64,000 bases of DNA from an uncultured Candidatus Saccharibacteria bacterium (GTDB taxonomy: Bacteria; Patescibacteriota; Minisyncoccia; 2-02-FULL-40-12; GWA2-44-9), in assembly GCA_964444955.1 (NCBI GenBank), contig CAYUJB010000001.1:77368-141367 (forward strand), read 5' to 3'. Shown here piece by piece: positions 4,799 to 32,360 of the stretch. Within the stretch, counting starts at the first letter, position 1, and every line of letters begins with the position of its first letter. The notes under the pieces are model-generated. The model did no database searches and had not been told where the DNA came from. It saw only the letters and a program-made list of their open reading frames with translations. Made by a program: the position numbers and the translations under genes.

Positions 4799-4990
4799 AA
4801 TTGCGGGAAGGGTGGGATTTGCCCGCACCTCTCGCCTCGCCGTCGCGATGCTCGGGCCTGCCTACCGGCAGGCAGGTTGGGCACCGCCTCCGGGCGACAT
4901 CTACTGATATCGCATCCGTCCGGCGTTCGAATCTCACTTTCTGTCTGCGTTTCTCTATAAACTACCAAACGGCAGTTTATAGAGAAATTG
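4799..4990 (-). other. tRNA-3'-flanking module A: hairpin, conserved-core element, and 21-nt direct repeat of the tRNA 3' end
   Basis: aattgcgggaagggtgggatt occurs at 4799-4819 and again at 4987-5007 (the tRNA 3' end). A perfect 13-bp hairpin lies at 4951-4986. The core blocks cggacggatgcgat, gtcgcccggagg and gcgacggcgag are shared with modules B and C. Confidence 0.7.
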
Positions 4991-5077
4991 CGGGAAGGGT
5001 GGGATTCGAACCCACGAGACCCGTAAAGGTCCGGCGGTTTAGTAAACCGCTGCTTTCAGCCGCTCAGCCACCTTCCC
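4991..5077 (-). tRNA. type II tRNA, Ser-like; anticodon reads as ACU (unusual, needs verification)
   Basis: Acceptor gggaagg/ccttccc, discriminator G, 3-bp D stem, long variable arm, T-arm gtggg-ttcgaat-cccac, anticodon stem gcggt/accgc with loop ttACTaa. Confidence 0.7.
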
Positions 5078-5420: not shown

Positions 5421-7190
5421 CTATCGCGGCAGCACTTCTTTCCAACCGGGGACGCGCTGCTGAACGGGGAGCGATTTGGTCTGCACGCAGGTAAACGTGC
5501 CGTCGGAGACGGAGAGGTTCACGGAATATGAACCCGGTGCGGTGTAGGTGTGGGTGGGGTCGGGGAGCGCTGAAGTGCCGGTGTCACCAAACGTCCAACT
5601 CCACGACGTGCACAAGCTTGGTGTCACACCCACTGAGTAGCACGTGGTGCTGCCGTCGCTGAAGGCGACCTCGGTATCCACCGGAGGCTTGGTAGGCGAC
5701 CAGGTAAAGGTGCTCACATTCGACGGATAGGCGTGGGCGGGGGATTGCCACGACGTGTTGCCACCCGAACAGCCCGAGGGATTGCCCGGAGGGCCCTCAC
5801 ACTCGGTCTGGGTAACCCAAGAGGAGGGAGCATCAAACGCATCCCACACTTTCACGCGGGAATAGTAGGTGGTGTCCCAGTCGATGCCACTGCTGGTGAA
5901 GACTGAGGTGGACGTGCCGGTGAGTTTGCCGCTGTCATAGACGGGACTGCCAAATCCCACACTGTCATCGAGTTGTACCTGGTATGCTGATTGCGCATCG
6001 CCATCAGCATCGCTATAGCTCCACGAAACGGTCACCGCAGGGCCAGAGCTGCAGTAGTCGGGCTCAGCGGCTTTGACATTCGATGCGGTTGGCGAGGTGT
6101 TGGCGAGTACCGTGACGGTCACGCTGTCGTTAGCAGACGTTCCCCCTGCACCATCACAGGTGAGGGTGTACGTTTTGTTGGCGAGGAGATTCGTTTTTGA
6201 TTCGCTGCCCGTGGTTGCCTTTGCACCTGACCAGTCCACTGAAGCGGTGCAGCTGGAGGCATTTGTGCTGCTCCATGAGAGATTGGCCGTGCCGCTATAG
6301 GCAACAGTACACGCTGCATCACTCCCATTGCAAAGAAGTGAGATAGTCGGAGTGATAGCGGTGCAGGTGACCGTGAATGTCTTGTCAGGCGCACCAGAGT
6401 TGATGGCTTTAGACCACGCATCGGGAGTGCAGGTGTAGTCGGCGGGGGGAGTGAGACTGATGGTGTAGGTGGCGAAGTCTAAGTCGGTGTACAGCCCCGA
6501 GGTGCCCGAGCCACTGCCGGCACCGGGGATCGTCCAGGACACTCCTGCGTTGTTGGTGCTCACGGCGATAGAGCCCGTGGTGGGTGCACAGGACTGATTG
6601 GTGCAGCTGTCGCTGCATGATGCTGGGCAGGTGCCGTTGCTCGCCCCATCATCGCACTCTTCACCACCGTTGACGATGCTGTCGCCGCAGTAGGCGCAGA
6701 CACCGCAATCGTCGGAGCAGCTCCCACACGTTTCCCCTCCGTTGCACGTTCCATCACCACACGAGGGTCCCGGGTCGGGGGTGGGAGTTGGGTCGGGAGT
6801 TGGCGTCGCACAGGCACCACAATCTTCGCTACAGTTTCCGCACGTTTCTCCCGCATCGCACGAGCTGTCGCCGCAGGACGGAGTTGGCTCGGGAGGGGGA
6901 GGGTCATTACAGATGACATCATATTCAGCCCAGGCGCAAACACCTCCACCCGGGTCACCGCTGCAGTATGTTGTGGCTCCGTTCATGACACACCCACCAC
7001 CATAGGGGCAGTTGTCTGATACGGTGCCACCTAGACAAATATTTTGCTCGTCCTGATCTATGTAGGGACTACAATAAAAACCGCCTGTGCAGTAGATAGT
7101 TTCAGCGCGGGATATCGTAGGGACAATAAATAGTATTGAGCATACGGCTCCAATACTGAAGAAAGAAATATCTTGAAAAATCTTTTTCAT
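5421..7190 (-). CDS. secreted Cys-rich repeat / PKD-like surface protein
   Basis: 589 aa. N-terminal signal peptide, repeated CGDGxCNGGETCGxCxxDCGxC units, Pro/Thr linkers, and C-terminal Ig/PKD-like beta-rich region. Confidence 0.7.
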   Translation of the reverse strand: MKKIFQDISFFSIGAVCSILFIVPTISRAETIYCTGGFYCSPYIDQDEQNICLGGTVSDNCPYGGGCVMNGATTYCSGDPGGGVCAWAEYDVICNDPPPPEPTPSCGDSSCDAGETCGNCSEDCGACATPTPDPTPTPDPGPSCGDGTCNGGETCGSCSDDCGVCAYCGDSIVNGGEECDDGASNGTCPASCSDSCTNQSCAPTTGSIAVSTNNAGVSWTIPGAGSGSGTSGLYTDLDFATYTISLTPPADYTCTPDAWSKAINSGAPDKTFTVTCTAITPTISLLCNGSDAACTVAYSGTANLSWSSTNASSCTASVDWSGAKATTGSESKTNLLANKTYTLTCDGAGGTSANDSVTVTVLANTSPTASNVKAAEPDYCSSGPAVTVSWSYSDADGDAQSAYQVQLDDSVGFGSPVYDSGKLTGTSTSVFTSSGIDWDTTYYSRVKVWDAFDAPSSWVTQTECEGPPGNPSGCSGGNTSWQSPAHAYPSNVSTFTWSPTKPPVDTEVAFSDGSTTCYSVGVTPSLCTSWSWTFGDTGTSALPDPTHTYTAPGSYSVNLSVSDGTFTCVQTKSLPVQQRVPGWKEVLPR

Positions 7191-10276: not shown

Positions 10277-10366
10277 TGGAGACGTGTCAGAGTGGTCTAT
10301 TGTACCTCTTTGCTAAAGAGGCAGGGGGTAATTCCCCTCGGAGGTTCGAATCCTCCCGTCTCCGCC
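10277..10366 (+). tRNA. tRNA-Ser(GCU), type II, CCA encoded
   Basis: Acceptor ggagacg/cgtctcc, anticodon loop ttGCTaa, long variable arm, T-arm ggagg-ttcgaat-cctcc, 3' gcca. Confidence 0.85.
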
Positions 10367-10565
10367 ATAATACCCCGAACTAGCATTTGCTAGTTCGGGG
10401 TATTACTATGGTGTGAAAACGGAGGATTCGAAGCCCGGAGCGATGTGACGACAGCAGGAGTCACCGCGAGGGCGGGAGCCCAGAACCGAGATGCCGCGAC
10501 TGGCGGCGTCGAGAGTGGCGGGTGAATCCCTGCCTGTCGGCAGACAGGCTCCCGTCTCCGCCATA
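10367..10565 (+). other. tRNA-3'-flanking module C: hairpin, conserved-core element, and 17-nt direct repeat of the tRNA 3' end
   Basis: ctcccgtctccgccata occurs at 10350-10366 (the tRNA 3' end) and again at 10549-10565. A perfect 16-bp hairpin lies at 10370-10401. The element begins cggaggattcgaagcccggagcgatg, an inverted T-arm followed by a conserved block. Confidence 0.7.
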
Positions 10566-27718: not shown

Positions 27719-27748
27719 TGTGTAATATATAAGCTCTGTGCCACTGCG

Positions 27749-27943
27749 CCCTCCGCGCCGTCTCGCAGGATGCGGAGCTCGAGCCTCATGCATCATGAGG
27801 CTCGATGTATTCATAACTCGCTCTAGATGAAAGGACTGTATCTCGCTCATACAGATGAATAGCATCGGCCTCAGATTCAATCGGCTTTTCTCGCTTCCTC
27901 CCTGTCTTCGTCGGCATCGGAGGGCTGCGCTGACATGGACCCG
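27749..27943 (+). repeat. dispersed intergenic repeat, copy 2 (about 195 bp)
   Basis: Near-identical to 20249-20443. Confidence 0.85.
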
Positions 27944-27946
27944 TTT

Positions 27947-27977
27947 TGAACGGCTAAGACGAAGGTTTAGCCGTTGG
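27947..27977. repeat. hairpin module aacggctaagac-gaag-gtttagccgtt
   Basis: Variant of the 20575-20603 palindrome, directly abutting repeat copy 2. Confidence 0.7.
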
Positions 27978-28217
27978 TAATGCCGAAGGCATACCGAGCG
28001 TCGCTGGCATATCGATGGGAAGACCTCCTCGGAGCACGGCTGGTGCGAGAGCAGAAGCGTCCCGCTAGCAAGCGGGAACGCTGTGGCTGACCAGGCGATA
28101 TGCCAGCAGAGCGATGCGATTGTCGGCTGATAGGTAGGGCTATGTCAGTGTGAGATGGAGCAGTAAAGATCATATTCTTTTGCAAAATATGCCGTTTTTT
28201 CGTACGATGAACGAACT

Positions 28218-31200
28218 ATGTTTGATTTCAAGCAGCGCGAAGAGGAGATACTGAAATTCTGGGAAAACAACAGTATCTTCGAAAAAAGCATGGAGCAGCG
28301 CAAAGGCGGCAAACCGTTCGTGTTTTTTGAGGGGCCACCTACTGCCAATGGCAGCCCGGGCATCCATCATTTCGTATCGCGCGCATTCAAAGACTTGTTT
28401 TGTCGTTTTCAATCGATGCGTGGGCGCTACGTGTTGCGCAAAGGGGGATGGGATACCCACGGGTTGCCCGTGGAGCTCGCGGTAGAAAAGGAGCTCGGTT
28501 TTAAGAGTAAGAAAGATATCGAAGTGTATGGTATTGCTGCATACAACCGTAAGTGTCGTGAGTCGGTGTGGAAATATCAAAGTGAATGGGAGCGATTCAC
28601 CAAGCGCATGGGCTATTGGGTAGATCTCAAGCATCCCTACATCACCTATGAGAATCCCTATATCGAGTCGCTCTGGAATATTATCGCGACCATTTGGGAC
28701 AAAAACCTTCTCTACCAAGCGCATCGGGTGGTGCCATTCTGCACACGCTGCGGCACGCCGCTCTCCAGCCACGAGGTGGCGCAGGGGTACAAGACCGTCA
28801 CTGATACGTCGGTGTTTCTGAAGTTTCGTGTCGCGCGCTCGAAGCTCAAACTTCCTAAGAATACTTCTATTCTCGCCTGGACGACCACACCGTGGACGTT
28901 GCCGGGCAATGTTGCGCTGGCGGTCGGGCGAGATATTCGGTACGTACTTGCGCATCACGCTGGAGCCGATGAGTATTTTATTCTTGCGGCTGATCTCGCT
29001 AATACCGTGCTGGGCGCGCCACTGGCCATTGATCGAGAATTTTCTGGTGCTGAGCTCATTGGGACAAGCTACGAGCCGCTCTTCGCAGTGCGTAGCCTCA
29101 AGAAGCCCACATCGTACAAGGTCTACGCCGCGGATTTTGTGTCTACATCCGACGGCACGGGCGTAGTGCACACCGCGGTGATGTATGGCGAGGATGATTA
29201 CCAATTAGGCACCACACTCAAGCTGGTGAAACAGCACACGGTGGATGAGCAGGGCAAGTTCTTTGGTGTGTCAGAGGCACTCGATGGCAAATATGTAAAA
29301 TCATCGACCACGGAGGCGATGATCATTGATTCGCTCACAGAACGCGGATTACTCTTGCGTGCGTTGCCCTATGAGCACGAATATCCGTTCTGCTGGCGGT
29401 GCGATACGCCGCTGTTGTACTACGCAAAGGATAGTTGGTTCGTGCGCGTGAGTTCGCTTAACAAGCAGATGCTCGCCAACAACGACCAGGTCAACTGGGT
29501 GCCATCTCACCTCAAGGACGGCCGGTTTGGGCAGTGGATTCGCGAAGGCAAGGATTGGGCATTTTCTCGTGAGCGATACTGGGGTACACCACTGCCGATT
29601 TGGCGATCCAAAGATGGCAAGAAAACGATCGTCGCTCGTTCTCTGGAAGATTTGGATACCTATCGTGCGCGCAAGGCAAATACCTTTATTCTCGTTCGCC
29701 ACGGCGAGAGTACGCGCAACAGTATCTCACGCGCAGACTCTACCATCTCGAGTTCGCTCGATCACGATACCTATCATCTCACCGAGCGGGGAGTGTCGGA
29801 GGCGCAGTCGTTGGCGGCAACGTTGAAAGCAAAAAAGATTGATGCGATCTATGCGTCACCATTTGTGCGCACGCAAGAAACGTCAAAAATTCTTTCGGTC
29901 GTGCTCAAGAAAAAAATTATCACGGATGAGCGACTTGGGGAGTTGCAGTACGGTACTGCATACGAGGGCAAAAAAGTGTCGCAAGCTGGTGACGATGTGG
30001 TGCGCAAATCATTCCATGATGCACCAGCCGGAGGAGAATCGTGGCAGCAATGTCGCGCGCGTATGACCGCATTCTTTACGGAGGTGAATGCGAAGTACGA
30101 GGGCAAGACTATTGTGGTAGTCTCCCACGGAGATCCGTTATGGTTGGCTCGCACCATGCTTCGAGGGCTCACCGAAGAGGAGGCCATCCCTCAGTACGGC
30201 GATCTCTATCCTACGTTTGCGACCTCGTACGTTGAAACGATGCACAACTGGCCGTACGACGAACGGGGTAATCTCGACATGCATCGTCCTTACGTCGATG
30301 AGATTGTCCTCAAAACAAAAGGTTCGAGCACGCTCCTGCGACGTATTCCGGAACTTTGTGACGTTTGGTTTGACTCGGGATCCATGCCGTATGCGCAGTG
30401 GCACTGGCCGTTCGAAAACAAGGCGCTCGCTGAACAGAATTTCCCAGCAGATTTTATCGCAGAAGGCGTTGATCAAACGCGCGGCTGGTTTTATCTGCTC
30501 TTAGCAGTGAGTACACTCCTCGGCAAGGGCGCGCCGTATCGCACCGTGCTATCCAATGGTCACGTGCTCGATGAAAAGGGGATCAAGATGTCCAAGTCAA
30601 AGGGGAATATCGTGAAGCCCGATGAGGTTATCGATGCGGTCGGGGTTGATGTGGCGCGCTGGTATTTTTACACCATCAATTCACCGGGTGATTCCAAAAA
30701 CTTCTCGATGAAAGAAGTGCGTGAGCGTCTGACGGGATTTATGATGACACTCCAAAACTGCGTGCGCTTCTATGAGCTCTACAGCACCGAACACGTCACC
30801 AGCGACGCGCCCACGACGACGAATCTCTTGGACGCCTGGATCCTCTCGCGTCTTACCGAGGTGACAAAGATGACGACCGAGCGCTTGGAGACATATGAAC
30901 TCACCGAGGCATCACGCGCATTGGAGAAATTTATTGTTGATGATTTTAGCCAATGGTGGCTGCGCCGAAGTCGCAAACGCGACGATGCGTTACCGCTTCT
31001 ACGTCGTATCCTCAAATCACTGGCTCTATTGTTGGCGCCATTTACTCCGTATGTCGCCGAAGATCTCTGGCTCAAGCTCAAGACAGATGGCGATGTAGAG
31101 TCCGTACATCTTGCCGATTGGCCACACTACGATGCCGCCGCCATCGACGCCGCGCTCTACGAACAGATGGATCGTGTGCGCTCTGGTATTAGTGCTGGAT

Positions 31201-31646
31201 TGGCAATTCGCAAAAACGAAGCAATCAAAGTGCGCCAACCACTTGCGTCTGTGACAATTCCTGGCACACCTCTCCAGCCAGATTTAGAGCAACTTATTCT
31301 TGATGAACTCAATGTGAAAGCGGTGCAGTATGTCGTTGGCGCTGATGTGGCACTCGATCTCCGTATTGGCACCGAACTGCGCGCCGAAGGATTCGCACGC
31401 GAAGTGATGCGTGCCATCCAAGACATGCGTAAAGAGGCCGGCTGTCAGGTCTCCGATCGTGTCCACTGCGAGTGGGCAAGTACCGACGCGGATGTGGCCG
31501 CTGCCCTCCGCGTGCACGATGCCTTAATCCGCAAAGACACCGGACTCTCTGCGTTTATCGAAAAGCCCGATAACAGCACGCTTACGGTTGAGAAGAATTT
31601 CGATCTCGCGCCCGGCAAACCGATCTGGATTGGTATTCGCGTCTAA
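28218..31646 (+). CDS. ileS: isoleucyl-tRNA synthetase with inserted histidine-phosphatase (PGAM-like) domain
   Basis: 1142 aa with HIGH-type PPTANGSPGIHH, WAFSRERYWGTPLPIW, HRPYVDE and KMSKS motifs. An extra in-frame segment of about 200 aa with RHGES...VVSHGD lies between PIW and HRPYVDE. Confidence 0.95.
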   Translation: MFDFKQREEEILKFWENNSIFEKSMEQRKGGKPFVFFEGPPTANGSPGIHHFVSRAFKDLFCRFQSMRGRYVLRKGGWDTHGLPVELAVEKELGFKSKKDIEVYGIAAYNRKCRESVWKYQSEWERFTKRMGYWVDLKHPYITYENPYIESLWNIIATIWDKNLLYQAHRVVPFCTRCGTPLSSHEVAQGYKTVTDTSVFLKFRVARSKLKLPKNTSILAWTTTPWTLPGNVALAVGRDIRYVLAHHAGADEYFILAADLANTVLGAPLAIDREFSGAELIGTSYEPLFAVRSLKKPTSYKVYAADFVSTSDGTGVVHTAVMYGEDDYQLGTTLKLVKQHTVDEQGKFFGVSEALDGKYVKSSTTEAMIIDSLTERGLLLRALPYEHEYPFCWRCDTPLLYYAKDSWFVRVSSLNKQMLANNDQVNWVPSHLKDGRFGQWIREGKDWAFSRERYWGTPLPIWRSKDGKKTIVARSLEDLDTYRARKANTFILVRHGESTRNSISRADSTISSSLDHDTYHLTERGVSEAQSLAATLKAKKIDAIYASPFVRTQETSKILSVVLKKKIITDERLGELQYGTAYEGKKVSQAGDDVVRKSFHDAPAGGESWQQCRARMTAFFTEVNAKYEGKTIVVVSHGDPLWLARTMLRGLTEEEAIPQYGDLYPTFATSYVETMHNWPYDERGNLDMHRPYVDEIVLKTKGSSTLLRRIPELCDVWFDSGSMPYAQWHWPFENKALAEQNFPADFIAEGVDQTRGWFYLLLAVSTLLGKGAPYRTVLSNGHVLDEKGIKMSKSKGNIVKPDEVIDAVGVDVARWYFYTINSPGDSKNFSMKEVRERLTGFMMTLQNCVRFYELYSTEHVTSDAPTTTNLLDAWILSRLTEVTKMTTERLETYELTEASRALEKFIVDDFSQWWLRRSRKRDDALPLLRRILKSLALLLAPFTPYVAEDLWLKLKTDGDVESVHLADWPHYDAAAIDAALYEQMDRVRSGISAGLAIRKNEAIKVRQPLASVTIPGTPLQPDLEQLILDELNVKAVQYVVGADVALDLRIGTELRAEGFAREVMRAIQDMRKEAGCQVSDRVHCEWASTDADVAAALRVHDALIRKDTGLSAFIEKPDNSTLTVEKNFDLAPGKPIWIGIRV

Positions 31647-31649
31647 CCG

Positions 31650-32360
31650 ATGCTCAGCGAACTCAAGCAACAACTACGGGCCCATGCGAGTCCTGCGAGA
31701 GCGCGGGTTTCGGCGAGTTTTTTTAAGACTGGAGAGGGTGAGTATGGAGCAGGGGATGTATTCTTGGGCGTGACCGTGCCAGATACGCGGCGCGTCGTGA
31801 AGCAATTTCACCAGCTTCCACTCGTTGATATTCAGGAGTTGATCAACTCGCCACTGCACGAAGAGCGCCTGTGTGGCTTCCTGATTTTGGTTCATCAGTT
31901 CGAACGTGGCGACGCAAAAGTACGTGCACGTATCTTTCGTTTCTATTGCGCCAACAGTAAGCGCGTCAACAATTGGGATTTGGTTGACCTCACCGCCCCG
32001 AATATCGTTGGGGAGTATCTCTTCGAAACAAAGGACTCGGGTGCGCTCTTGGTTCGCTATGCGCGTTCTCAAAATCTCTGGCAGCGTCGCATCGCAATTT
32101 TGGCAACGTTCGCGTTCATTCGAAAGGGAAGATGGGTGCCCACGCTCAATATTGCACGCATCCTCCTCAACGATCCCGAAGACCTCATTGCCAAAGCGGT
32201 GGGGTGGATGCTGCGCGAAGTGGGAAAGCGTATCGATCAGGATATCGAAGAGGAGTTTCTCAAAAAACACTACCATCGCATGCCCCGCACGATGTTGCGG
32301 TATGCGATCGAGCGCTTCTCGAAGCGTCGCGCGCGTATGTACTTGGACGGCAAGATATAA
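31650..32360 (+). CDS. DNA alkylation repair protein (AlkD/AlkC-like HEAT-repeat glycosylase)
   Basis: 236 aa, helical-repeat, with an NNWDLVD motif. Confidence 0.7.
   Translation: MLSELKQQLRAHASPARARVSASFFKTGEGEYGAGDVFLGVTVPDTRRVVKQFHQLPLVDIQELINSPLHEERLCGFLILVHQFERGDAKVRARIFRFYCANSKRVNNWDLVDLTAPNIVGEYLFETKDSGALLVRYARSQNLWQRRIAILATFAFIRKGRWVPTLNIARILLNDPEDLIAKAVGWMLREVGKRIDQDIEEEFLKKHYHRMPRTMLRYAIERFSKRRARMYLDGKI

What the first reader, a model, noticed from the sequence alone, without database searches (positions are those of the whole stretch)
29660..30290. Isoleucyl-tRNA synthetase with an in-frame histidine-phosphatase (PGAM-like) domain insertion
The expected connective segment lies between the conserved WAFSRERYWGTPLPIW and the DMHRPYVDE...DVWFDSGS region. 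In its place IleS carries a roughly 200-aa insertion (about aa 485-685) with the hallmarks of histidine-phosphatase superfamily branch 1: an N-terminal LVRHGES (RHG catalytic His) and a C-terminal VVVSHGDPLW. The ORF is continuous over 1142 aa, so this is a domain insertion and not a frameshift or gene fusion. An aaRS fused to a phosphoglycerate-mutase-like phosphatase is not a standard architecture. It might act on a nucleotide or phospho-substrate linked to aminoacylation or alarmone metabolism, or it could be a degenerate or regulatory domain.
Basis: seen in the sequence. Interest (0 to 1): 0.75.

Follow-up and report, generated by a model that had tools for sequence, protein, structure and literature searches.

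The report
Phosphatase domain inside isoleucyl-tRNA synthetase
An essential protein-synthesis enzyme (isoleucyl-tRNA synthetase) of an ultra-small Patescibacteria bacterium carries a complete, apparently active phosphatase inserted in its middle; hundreds of related species share this design, no paper I could find describes it, and its purpose is unknown.

Summary
ORF 28218-31646 is a 1142-aa type-2 IleRS, and aa 484-684 (nt 29667-30269) replace a ~6-residue loop with a histidine-phosphatase branch-1 domain (Pfam E 2.5e-31). It is not a chimera: all 120 best full-length relatives and 79 of the 80 best-matching GTDB species loci (302 matched the motif used) have the same in-frame architecture, all Parcubacteria/Paceibacteria where named. 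R494, H495, R551 and H637 are invariant in 148 sequences whose inserts are only ~37% identical, so the domain is almost certainly catalytic. It meets no mutase, PspA, CobC or SixA family cut-off.

New evidence:
- In sister lineages the same phosphatase is a free-standing gene abutting ileS (46 of 50 assessable loci), usually after argS.
- It is also found at two other IleRS sites and fused to ArgRS.
- The window's copy is a replaced cassette: ~40% identity to its nearest IleRS relatives inside the insert, 80-86% outside.

I conclude it is an accessory phosphatase coupled to the synthetase. The substrate is unknown; I favour a nucleotide or tRNA-end phosphate. A piggy-backing metabolic enzyme is the main rival. 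The architecture sits in public databases labelled only as IleRS.

The parts
28218..31646 (+). ileS: type-2 (eukaryote-like) isoleucyl-tRNA synthetase with an internal phosphatase domain, 1142 aa
   Evidence: ORF. TIGR00392 838.7 bits against a cut-off of 621.4. PDB 8c8w_A E 9e-241. AF2 whole-protein model mean pLDDT 90.4, pTM 0.82.
28218..29666 (+). IleRS N-terminal part (aa 1-483): first half of the Rossmann fold, CP1 editing domain, and the WAFSRERYWGTPLPIW motif
   Evidence: Aligns to 8c8w_A residues 11-478. Pfam tRNA-synt_1 aa 11-486.
28359..28370 (+). Non-canonical class I signature motif G-I-H-H (aa 48-51) in place of HxGH
   Evidence: Sequence. Among 148 homologues: 89 GxHH, 10 AxHH, 49 HxGH. 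PMC10485003 links G/AxHH in IleRS2 to mupirocin hyper-resistance.
29604..29618 (+). First arm of the zinc-knuckle hairpin, with the Cys ligands lost in this protein (R-S-K-D-G where most relatives have C-x-x-C)
   Evidence: 111 of 148 homologues have Cys at the columns of S464, T700 and S703; the window has none. P0001 and P0004 show CxxC...CxxC flanking the insert.
29667..30269 (+). Inserted histidine-phosphatase (branch 1) domain plus linker, aa 484-684
   Evidence: PF00300 E 2.5e-31. AF2 domain model pLDDT 84.8, pTM 0.84. Foldseek top hits are PspA 4ij5/4ij6, GpgP 4pz9, PhoE 1h2e and CobC 6e4b at 20-26% identity.
29697..29705 (+). RHG motif: R494 and the catalytic nucleophile H495, then G496
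   Evidence: R and H are present in 148 of 148 homologues.
29868..29870 (+). R551, the second phosphate-binding arginine (SPFVRT motif)
   Evidence: 148 of 148; S547 is also 148 of 148.
29940..29942 (+). E575, the putative proton donor (RLGE motif)
   Evidence: 145 Glu and 3 Asp out of 148. Its role is assigned by analogy with E89 of dPGM (my own knowledge).
30123..30131 (+). S-H-G motif containing the second catalytic histidine, H637
   Evidence: H is present in 148 of 148.
30168..30269 (+). C-terminal linker of the insert (aa 651-684), present only in fused forms, leading back into 'NLDMHRPYVD'
   Evidence: Standalone relatives match only up to about query residue 170-180, whereas fused ones match to the end. 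pLDDT is 90-95 in the whole-protein model but 55-62 in the isolated-domain model.
29660..30245 (+). Block of different ancestry (replaced cassette) relative to the closest IleRS relatives
   Evidence: Codon-aligned nucleotide identity to L088 is 0.69-0.88 over most of the rest of the gene (two C-terminal blocks are 0.56 and 0.65) and 0.32-0.63 (mostly below 0.5) inside this block. L090 is the closer of the two inside the block. The protein alignment shows sharp edges after 'DLDTYRA' and before 'DERGNLDMHRPYVD'. All 27 other members of the window's IleRS body cluster carry a different insert type.
30270..31643 (+). IleRS C-terminal part (aa 685-1142): DVWFDSG strand, GVDQTRGWF, KMSKS, anticodon-binding domain and the DUF5915 C-terminal domains
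   Evidence: Aligns to 8c8w_A residues 485-893 and beyond. Pfam Anticodon_1 aa 872-1011 and DUF5915 aa 1044-1112.
30585..30599 (+). KMSKS motif (aa 790-794), intact
   Evidence: Sequence and conservation in 148 homologues.

Best explanation
The segment is a complete, catalytically competent branch-1 histidine phosphatase of the small PhoE/PspA-like kind. It is inserted in-frame at the tip of the zinc-knuckle hairpin between the WGTPLP and DVWFDSG motifs of a type-2 IleRS; I infer this is the CP3 region. The enzyme therefore has a third active site besides aminoacylation and editing. By homology, the chemistry is as follows: H495 attacks a phosphomonoester to form a phospho-histidine intermediate; R494, R551 and H637 hold the phosphate; E575 protonates the leaving group.

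The domain descends from a gene that in sister Paceibacteria is a free-standing ORF abutting or overlapping the start of ileS in an argS-hisPhos-ileS operon. I infer that a tandem duplication of hisPhos-ileS, followed by two in-frame deletions, would place the upstream gene inside ileS. That route would also explain why other lineages carry the domain at other IleRS loops.

What evolution conserves is the catalytic core and the physical link to a class I synthetase (IleRS at three sites, and the ArgRS C-terminus). The substrate-defining cap is not conserved. From this I infer that the phosphatase serves the aminoacylation machinery and not central metabolism. My favoured substrate class is a phosphate on a nucleotide by-product or on the terminal ribose of tRNA, removed next to the enzyme that needs a free 2'/3'-OH.

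Shown: the architecture, the intact catalytic set, the distribution, the operon and fusion linkage, and the cassette replacement. Inferred: that the domain is enzymatically active, that it is functionally coupled to the synthetase, and the substrate class.
For: Identity and integrity:
- PF00300 E 2.5e-31.
- R494, H495, S547, R551 and H637 are invariant; E575 and E607 are 145 of 148, in homologues whose inserts average 37% identity to the window's.
- The models are confident and the nearest folds are small phosphatases.

Coupling to IleRS:
- All 120 best full-length hits carry the domain.
- 79 of the 80 best GTDB species loci are fused at the same site.
- Of 52 standalone relatives in metagenome loci, 46 have ileS directly downstream on the same strand (median stop-to-start gap about 1.5 nt), 2 are cut by contig ends and 4 lack ileS. 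37 have argS upstream. L001-L004 and L079 show the same arrangement.
- No fused locus from the GTDB scan (L008-L087) has a second copy within 6 kb, and the window has none.
- Independent placements exist: site 2 (P0197, P0183, P0145), site 3 (P0163, P0177, P0183), a tandem pair (P0170) and an ArgRS C-terminal fusion (P0182).
- In the window's lineage the cassette was replaced, not lost.

Docking and specificity:
- The linker is ordered only in the full-length model.
- The cap regions have no position conserved at 90% or more and vary in length, while the core is invariant.
- In some unfused loci ileS is flanked by nucleotide hydrolases: NUDIX overlapping the ileS stop in L001 and L002, and HIT in L003.
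Against: - No activity or substrate has been measured for any member.
- No histidine phosphatase is known to act on RNA ends (my own knowledge).
- The fused domains are mildly acidic (median pI 6.4), so they show no nucleic-acid-binding signature of their own.
- NUDIX or HIT neighbours occur in only 3 loci, representing 2 lineages.
- I could not measure where the phosphatase pocket points relative to the synthetic site, because no coordinates were available.
- Use of several insertion sites, and the presence of unrelated inserts (GNAT, a P-loop kinase-like domain, an IS200-like domain) in the same loops of related IleRS, fit permissive loops plus neighbour capture as well as they fit a precise mechanistic coupling.
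- The best-scoring NCBIfam model is the archaeal dPGM (93.7 bits against a cut-off of 225), so a mutase-like metabolic role is not excluded.
Confidence: 0.5

Rival explanations
1. Piggy-backing metabolic enzyme. The domain is an ordinary small-molecule phosphatase or mutase (for example a short dPGM, a phosphoserine phosphatase or a broad PhoE-like enzyme). Its gene happened to lie upstream of ileS and was captured into permissive surface loops of an essential, steadily expressed protein. The fusion provides co-expression but has no mechanistic link to aminoacylation.
For: The top NCBIfam hit is the archaeal dPGM, and the top fold hits are PspA, GpgP, PhoE and CobC. The same IleRS loops in relatives also accept a GNAT, a P-loop kinase-like domain and an IS200-like domain. 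Several different sites are used, which argues against a strict geometric requirement. The ArgRS fusion could be a simple read-through between adjacent genes. The domain's pI is acidic.
Against: The same family was recruited repeatedly: three IleRS sites, ArgRS, and tandem copies. 46 of 50 assessable standalone genes abut ileS across lineages that share only 40-60% identity. The cassette was replaced, not lost. The cap has no conserved specificity residues, which is unexpected for a dedicated metabolic enzyme. Every characterised family cut-off is missed.
Confidence: 0.3
2. Built-in protein phosphatase. The domain removes an inhibitory phosphate from the synthetase itself, for example from a Ser of the KMSKS loop. 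HipA/HipT-type kinase toxins place such a phosphate on other class I synthetases. This would keep IleRS (and ArgRS) active.
For: The superfamily includes protein phosphatases such as SixA, PGAM5 and Sts-1, and HipA/HipT toxins phosphorylate the KMSKS-type loops of GltX and TrpS (both my own knowledge). The domain is tethered to two class I synthetases. It appears rigidly docked. The cap is variable, as expected if the tether defines the substrate. The KMSKS serines are conserved.
Against: I have no evidence for such kinases in these genomes. SixA is only a weak hit (31 bits against a cut-off of 74.5). There is no PADLOC match. The geometry is untested.
Confidence: 0.12
3. Catalytically inert structural or regulatory module, for example a scaffold for a synthetase complex or a ligand sensor.
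For: Pseudo-enzymes exist in this superfamily (my own knowledge). The domain is well packed against the body in the model.
Against: R494, H495, R551 and H637 are invariant and E575 is 145 of 148 over a family with about 37% identity. Such conservation is not expected without catalysis.
Confidence: 0.05
4. Artefact: an assembly chimera, or a frameshift joining separate genes.
For: None found.
Against: The same architecture appears in more than 100 independent assemblies from four sources. The identical protein occurs on two contigs. Composition is flat. The ORF is continuous.
Confidence: 0.01

Closest known systems
Bacterial type-2 IleRS (e.g. Priestia megaterium IleRS2, PDB 8c8u/8c8w; Thermus thermophilus IleRS, 1ile)
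   Same: Same enzyme family end to end: catalytic core, CP1 editing domain, anticodon-binding domain and DUF5915-type C-terminus. KMSKS is intact, and the signature motif is the known GxHH variant.
   Different: About 200 extra residues sit where these enzymes have a loop of about 6 residues. The zinc-knuckle cysteines that flank that loop in most relatives are lost in the window protein.
Small phosphatase-type members of histidine phosphatase branch 1: PhoE (1h2e), PspA/iPSP (4ij5), GpgP Rv2419c (4pz9), CobC (6e4b)
   Same: Same fold and size, the same Arg-His...Arg...Glu...His catalytic set, and the GGES motif.
   Different: Only 20-26% identity, and below every curated family cut-off. The domain is embedded in another enzyme and has an extra ordered linker of about 35 residues. 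Its cap region is not conserved within its own family.
Bifunctional proteins that pair a histidine phosphatase with a nucleic-acid or nucleotide enzyme: mycobacterial MutT1 (NUDIX + His_Phos) and Rv2228c-type RNase H/acid phosphatase
   Same: A branch-1 histidine phosphatase is joined to an enzyme of nucleotide or nucleic-acid metabolism. The insert gives weak hits to both models (NF005567 76.5 bits, NF052459 22.7 bits). In some unfused loci a NUDIX gene overlaps the ileS stop.
   Different: Those are end-to-end fusions with different partners, whereas this is an internal insertion in an aaRS. The scores are far below the cut-offs (326 and 475).
IleRS with an N-acetyltransferase domain (NCBIfam NF040702, ileS_w_GNAT)
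   Same: A curated precedent for an IleRS that carries an extra enzymatic domain. A relative here (P0194) carries both a His_Phos and a GNAT domain.
   Different: The window protein has no GNAT domain and scores 293 against a cut-off of 1999. The inserted domain is from a different superfamily.
6-phosphofructo-2-kinase/fructose-2,6-bisphosphatase
   Same: It combines a His_Phos domain with a P-loop kinase, as does the relative P0257, which has His_Phos at site 1 and a kinase-like domain at site 2.
   Different: The window has no kinase domain. The kinase-like insert of P0257 gives only weak, generic hits (APS or shikimate kinase, E about 0.02).

Membership tests
Histidine phosphatase superfamily, branch 1 (PF00300) | Significant match to the family profile above the curated cut-off | tested here: met
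   109.3 bits (whole protein) and 113 bits (insert alone) against a cut-off of 21.7; E 2.5e-31 and 1.8e-32.
Histidine phosphatase superfamily, branch 1 (PF00300) | RHG motif with the nucleophilic His, a second Arg, a second His and an acidic proton donor | tested here: met
   R494, H495, R551, H637 and E575 are present. The first four are invariant and E575 is 145 of 148 in homologues.
Histidine phosphatase superfamily, branch 1 (PF00300) | Alpha/beta fold of the family | tested here: met
   AF2 pLDDT 84.8, pTM 0.84. Foldseek probability 1.00 and TM about 0.7 to PspA, GpgP, PhoE and CobC.
Histidine phosphatase superfamily, branch 1 (PF00300) | Phosphatase or mutase activity through a phospho-histidine intermediate | not testable with these tools
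   Needs an enzyme assay.
Cofactor-dependent phosphoglycerate mutase (dPGM; NF038349, TIGR01258, PRK14115 etc.) | Score at or above the curated equivalog or subfamily cut-off | tested here: not met
   NF038349 93.7 against 225; TIGR01258 32.9 against 81.7; NF010713 27.5 against 305.
Phosphoserine phosphatase PspA, alpha-ribazole phosphatase CobC, phosphohistidine phosphatase SixA | Score at or above the curated equivalog cut-off | tested here: not met
   PspA 72.3 against 350; CobC 69.8 against 162.9; SixA 31.3 against 74.5.
Isoleucyl-tRNA synthetase (TIGR00392), type 2 | Score at or above the equivalog cut-off, with a type-2 C-terminal organisation | tested here: met
   838.7 bits against 621.4. 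DUF5915 and Anticodon_1 are present. The best PDB hits are IleRS2 and T. thermophilus IleRS.
Isoleucyl-tRNA synthetase (TIGR00392), type 2 | Class I signature motifs HxGH (or the G/AxHH variant) and KMSKS | tested here: met
   GIHH at aa 48-51 and KMSKS at aa 790-794. The G/AxHH variant is documented as functional in IleRS2 (PMC10485003).
Isoleucyl-tRNA synthetase (TIGR00392), type 2 | Isoleucine-specific aminoacylation of tRNA-Ile with the insert present | not testable with these tools
   Inferred only. No second ileS lies in the 64-kb window, and the rest of the genome was not available.
Mupirocin-resistance IleRS MupA / MupB (NF000257, NF000258) | Score at or above the exception-model cut-off | tested here: not met
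   765 and 741 bits against a cut-off of 1900.
IleRS with GNAT domain (NF040702) | Score at or above the cut-off, with a GNAT domain present | tested here: not met
   293 bits against 1999, and no GNAT hit in Pfam.
Known anti-phage defence proteins (PADLOC-DB 2.0) | Any profile match at E <= 0.01 | tested here: not met
   No hits for the insert or for two standalone relatives.

The most novel reading that the evidence does not exclude
The phosphatase is an 'eraser' built into the synthetase. It would strip a blocking phosphate or pyrophosphate from the 3'-terminal adenosine of tRNA, the kind of damage caused by toxSAS/CapRel-type toxins or left by tRNA-cleaving toxins. Alternatively it would strip one from the synthetase's own KMSKS loop, the kind of damage caused by HipA-type kinases. 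Either way, translation in these tiny episymbionts would be intrinsically protected against phosphorylation-based toxins. Tethering to IleRS or ArgRS would supply the substrate specificity that the variable cap lacks.
Probability: 0.15. Interest if true: 0.9.

Novelty: new variant of a known kind. Interest (0 to 1): 0.68.

Why it matters
Aminoacyl-tRNA synthetases are among the most conserved enzymes known, and their accessory domains have repeatedly revealed new biology such as editing, signalling and complex formation.

Here a second, apparently active catalytic domain from an unrelated superfamily is fixed inside IleRS across a large bacterial radiation. It was recruited at several sites, is also fused to ArgRS, and elsewhere is kept as a translationally coupled operon partner. 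That pattern is a strong 'Rosetta stone' signal for an unrecognised phosphate-removing step connected with tRNA charging.

If the substrate turns out to be a tRNA end, a nucleotide by-product or the synthetase itself, it would add a new maintenance or immunity function to the translation apparatus. It would also help explain how ultra-reduced Patescibacteria protect protein synthesis.

If the domain is only a captured metabolic enzyme, it is still a clean natural example of how an upstream gene can become an internal domain of an essential enzyme. It would also matter for annotation, because pipelines may count these IleRS genes as 'phosphoglycerate mutase'.

Tried and rejected
- **Assembly chimera or frameshift:** rejected. 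The architecture is identical in more than 100 independent assemblies and the ORFs are continuous.
- **Mobile-element or intein-like insertion:** no flanking direct or inverted repeats beyond short chance matches, no compositional shift, and no endonuclease or splicing motifs in Pfam.
- **Degenerate pseudo-enzyme:** rejected by the invariant catalytic residues.
- **Assignment to dPGM, PspA, CobC, SixA or MutT1:** all fall below their curated cut-offs. The fold search cannot discriminate among them.
- **Defence-system component:** no PADLOC hit. The only PHROG hit is an unannotated phage histidine-phosphatase family.
- **Kinase-like insert of P0257 and GNAT of P0194 as substrate clues:** only weak, generic matches.
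- **Basic, RNA-binding-like charge on the domain:** not found (median pI 6.4).
- **Intragenic duplication as the source of second copies:** the two copies in double-insert proteins are only 30-35% identical and are not each other's best hits, so these are old duplications or separate captures.
- **Literature:** seven full-text searches and three papers read found no description of an IleRS or other aaRS with a histidine-phosphatase domain.
- **Technical:** I replaced it with a narrower alignment (A4).
- **Split IleRS as a common state:** only 2 of 105 fused loci show a break, so it is rare.
Full report
**1. The observation**

The window contains one uninterrupted ORF at 28218-31646 (+) encoding 1142 aa. 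Pfam splits the class I catalytic-core match in two and places His_Phos_1 (PF00300) at aa 491-654, with E 2.5e-31 and 109 bits against a cut-off of 21.7. The excised segment alone scores 113 bits.

NCBIfam identifies the host protein as IleRS (TIGR00392, 838.7 bits against 621.4). It is not MupA, MupB or the GNAT-containing IleRS.

Alignment with solved type-2 IleRS (8c8w_A, E 9e-241) pairs query 5-483 with chain 11-478 and query 685-1077 with chain 485-893. About 200 residues (aa 484-684, nt 29667-30269) therefore replace a loop of about six residues. GC content is flat across the segment, and nothing resembling element termini flanks it.

**2. Not an artefact, and not rare**

- The identical protein is on record from a 148-kb contig and from a second contig.
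- All 120 best full-length database hits (51-100% identity, 1126-1212 aa; NCBI, JGI, ENA and Logan) carry PF00300 together with the IleRS domains. Where named, they are Candidatus Yanofskybacteria, Paceibacterota or Patescibacteria.
- One of them is KKS26589.1 / UniRef A0A0G0XP42, from the GW2011 Yanofskybacteria assemblies and annotated simply as isoleucine-tRNA ligase.
- An exhaustive profile-free search with the insert alone found 94 IleRS-linked proteins among the best 150 representatives of 50%-identity clusters.
- A scan of one genome per GTDB species, using a single motif variant ([IVL][VI]SHGDPLW), hit 302 genomes. Of the 80 best, 79 have the domain in-frame between the two IleRS halves at the same site.
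- The named lineages are Yanofsky-, Harrison-, Ryan-, Lipton-, Colwell-, Nealson- and Niyogibacteria, and Paceibacter. Some records carry other submitter labels (Saccharibacteria, Gammaproteobacteria, Binatia) that I did not verify.
- 103 of 105 assessable fused loci are single continuous ORFs.

**3. The domain looks catalytically alive, but its substrate cannot be read from sequence**

In an alignment of 148 full-length fused IleRS, identity to the window protein averages 64% in the N-terminal part, 53% in the C-terminal part and only 37% in the insert. Even so, R494, H495, S547, R551 and H637 are invariant, and E575 and E607 are Glu in 145 of 148 (Asp in the other three).

The isolated domain models confidently (pLDDT 84.8, pTM 0.84). 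Its nearest solved folds are the ~200-residue phosphatase-type members at 20-26% identity: PspA, GpgP, PhoE, CobC and a riboflavin-pathway phosphatase. Every curated NCBIfam model for a defined activity is missed by a wide margin: archaeal dPGM 93.7 against 225, PspA 72 against 350, CobC 70 against 163, SixA 31 against 74.5.

The two cap segments, which shape the substrate pocket in this superfamily, contain no position conserved at 90% or more and vary in length (15-27 and 21-32 residues).

**4. Where it sits**

The insert lies between WAFSRERYWGTPLPIW and DMHRPYVD...DVWFDSG. In 111 of 148 relatives it is bracketed by CxxC...CxxC, which from my own knowledge is the second zinc site of T. thermophilus IleRS. 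The window protein has lost these cysteines. IleRS connective peptides are named CP core, CP1, CP2 and CP3 (PMC11685878). By sequence order this hairpin should be CP3, but that is my inference.

In the whole-protein model (pLDDT 90.4, pTM 0.82) the junctions and the 35-residue C-terminal linker score 90-95, against 55-62 when the domain is modelled alone. This suggests a docked domain and not one dangling on a flexible tether. I had no coordinates, so I could not measure the orientation of the pocket relative to the synthetic site.

**5. The key new evidence: a conserved partnership with synthetase genes**

The closest free-standing relatives are not scattered around genomes. In L001 and L002 the order is SmpB / ArgRS - His_Phos - IleRS (996-998 aa, no insert) - NUDIX. 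In L003 it is His_Phos - hemerythrin - HIT - IleRS. In L004 and L005 the gene follows ArgRS and faces an insert-free IleRS. In L079 its stop is 1 nt from the ileS start.

A metagenome scan seeded with standalone sequences returned 80 loci:

| Class | Loci |
|---|---|
| Fused at the usual site | 28 |
| Standalone, ileS immediately downstream on the same strand | 46 |
| Standalone, cut by a contig end | 2 |
| Standalone, no ileS within 5 kb | 4 |

In the 46 loci with ileS downstream, the median gap between the phosphatase stop and the predicted ileS start is about 1.5 nt, and 41 are within 100 nt. 37 of the 52 standalone loci have argS upstream.

In fused lineages argS is still upstream of ileS in about 48 of 79 loci. 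None of these GTDB-scan loci has an extra free copy within 6 kb, and the window has none either. More distant standalone homologues from other phyla show no such linkage.

**6. Repeated recruitment**

Relatives carry the same domain at other places:

- **Site 2** (window aa ~731-743, between HYPF and FPADFIAEG): P0197, P0183, P0145.
- **Site 3** (aa ~857-870, just before the anticodon-binding domain): P0163, P0177, P0183.
- **Tandem at site 1:** P0170.
- **C-terminus of ArgRS:** P0182.
- **Free tandem doublets:** P0228, P0244, P0260.

The two copies within one protein are only 30-35% identical. Site 2 also hosts a P-loop kinase-like domain in P0257, and apparently a GNAT in P0194, which has an IS200-like domain in CP1 as well. 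Both extra domains give only generic matches.

One route would explain how an upstream gene ends up inside ileS, and at different loops in different lineages: tandem duplication of hisPhos-ileS followed by two in-frame deletions. This is my inference and is untested.

**7. The window's own copy is a replaced cassette**

The window's IleRS body clusters with 27 sequences (63-86% identity), and all of them carry a different insert type (33-40% identity; 'SHE' instead of 'SHG'). The window's insert instead groups with P0274 and P0277 (66-68% in the insert, 63-65% in the body).

The locus of the closest relative (L088) is syntenic with the window: LigA-GatC-GatA-VanW-ileS-BFN-MsrA-DoxX-RecO-DUF11. 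Codon-aligned nucleotide identity to L088 is 0.69-0.88 across most of the gene but 0.32-0.63 (mostly below 0.5) between about nt 29660 and 30245, with sharp edges at 'DLDTYRA' and 'DERGNLDMHRPYVD'. The lineage exchanged its phosphatase and did not lose it, which is further evidence that a phosphatase at this position is selected for.

**8. Interpretation**

I regard the following as shown:
- a real, in-frame branch-1 histidine phosphatase with an intact catalytic set;
- its wide distribution in Parcubacteria;
- its genetic linkage to ileS and argS, both as an operon partner and as a fusion at several sites.

The following are inferred: that the domain is active, that it is functionally coupled to the synthetase, and what its substrate is.

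I favour a synthetase-coupled accessory phosphatase (confidence 0.5). Its specificity would come from the tether and not from the cap, and it would act on a nucleotide by-product or on a phosphate on the tRNA's terminal ribose. The main rival (0.3) is a captured metabolic phosphatase or mutase that merely shares expression. Permissive loops, unrelated co-inserts, an acidic pI and the dPGM-like best hit all fit that reading. A self-dephosphorylating synthetase (0.12) and an inert module (0.05) are less likely, and an artefact is excluded.

**9. Comparison with what is known, and novelty**

The host is an ordinary type-2 IleRS with the documented GxHH signature variant. The guest is an ordinary-looking small histidine phosphatase that belongs to no characterised subfamily. 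Fusions of histidine phosphatases with NUDIX or RNase H domains, and an IleRS with a GNAT domain, are precedents for the general idea.

Seven full-text searches and three IleRS papers yielded no description of a histidine phosphatase in or beside an aaRS. That library is incomplete, and the sequences themselves have been public for years. I therefore rate this as a new variant of a known kind (an aaRS with an accessory catalytic domain) that is widespread, uncharacterised and experimentally tractable.

Noticed in passing
window 28359-28370 (aa 48-51 of IleRS): The class I HIGH signature reads G-I-H-H. PMC10485003 shows that this non-canonical G/AxHH variant gives IleRS2 mupirocin hyper-resistance. 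Among 148 fused homologues, 99 have G/AxHH and 49 have HxGH.
   Followed up: partly
window 29604-29618 and ~30312-30326 (aa 463-467 and 699-703): The CxxC...CxxC zinc knuckle that brackets the insert in 111 of 148 relatives has lost all of its cysteines in this protein. The hairpin is presumably stabilised without zinc, possibly by the docked domain.
   Followed up: partly
P0163, P0177, P0183, P0145, P0170, P0197 (related IleRS, 1087-1468 aa): Some Patescibacteria IleRS carry two histidine-phosphatase domains, or carry the domain at other loops (window-equivalent aa ~731-743 and ~857-870). This implies several independent insertion events.
   Followed up: partly
P0257 (1395 aa) and P0194 (1066 aa, truncated): P0257 adds a P-loop kinase-like domain (weak APS/shikimate-kinase/Pnkp1-like hits) at site 2. 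P0194 has an IS200-like Y1 transposase domain inside CP1 and a GNAT (ElaA-like) after the phosphatase. IleRS loops in this phylum seem unusually tolerant of whole-domain insertions.
   Followed up: partly
P0182 (689 aa): An arginyl-tRNA synthetase with the same phosphatase subfamily fused to its C-terminus. Its domain is 50% identical to a free-standing relative (P0201).
   Followed up: partly
L001 6804-7343, L002 8798-9334, L003 789-1681: In lineages with an insert-free IleRS, a NUDIX gene overlaps the ileS stop codon (L001, L002), or hemerythrin and HIT-family genes lie between the phosphatase and ileS (L003). These nucleotide hydrolases may belong to the same functional neighbourhood, but they were seen in only 2 lineages.
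   Followed up: partly
L013 ~5845-6000 and L112 ~575-830: Two of 105 fused loci have a reading-frame break at the N-terminal junction of the insert. Several database proteins also start or end right at the insert boundaries (e.g. P0124, P0158, P0200, P0167, P0221). These could be split IleRS genes or sequencing errors.
   Followed up: no
window 31650-32360 (+): A DNA-alkylation-repair gene (PF08713) directly follows ileS (3-nt gap). It is absent from the otherwise syntenic locus of the closest relative (L088), so it is a lineage-specific gain or loss.
   Followed up: no
window 4990-5077 (-): ARAGORN calls a long-arm tRNA-Ser with anticodon ACT (A at the wobble position), which is unusual. A normal tRNA-Ser(GCT) lies at 10278-10367. 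This could be a mis-placed anticodon call or an A34 (inosine?) tRNA.
   Followed up: no
window 27719-28217: A roughly 500-nt non-coding gap lies upstream of ileS, whereas the syntenic relative L088 has only about 65 nt between VanW and ileS. No Rfam family reaches its gathering score there.
   Followed up: no
P0123 (2848 aa): A giant protein ranked third in the insert-only search (E 1.8e-34, two stretches). It shows no His_Phos Pfam hit, only weak Mpo1-like and microcin-immunity matches. This is probably a compositional or repeat artefact.
   Followed up: no
window 29667-30287; P0144: The domain matches PHROG 12933 (E 3e-18 and 2e-21), an unannotated phage protein family. Some phages therefore encode related small histidine phosphatases.
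   Followed up: no
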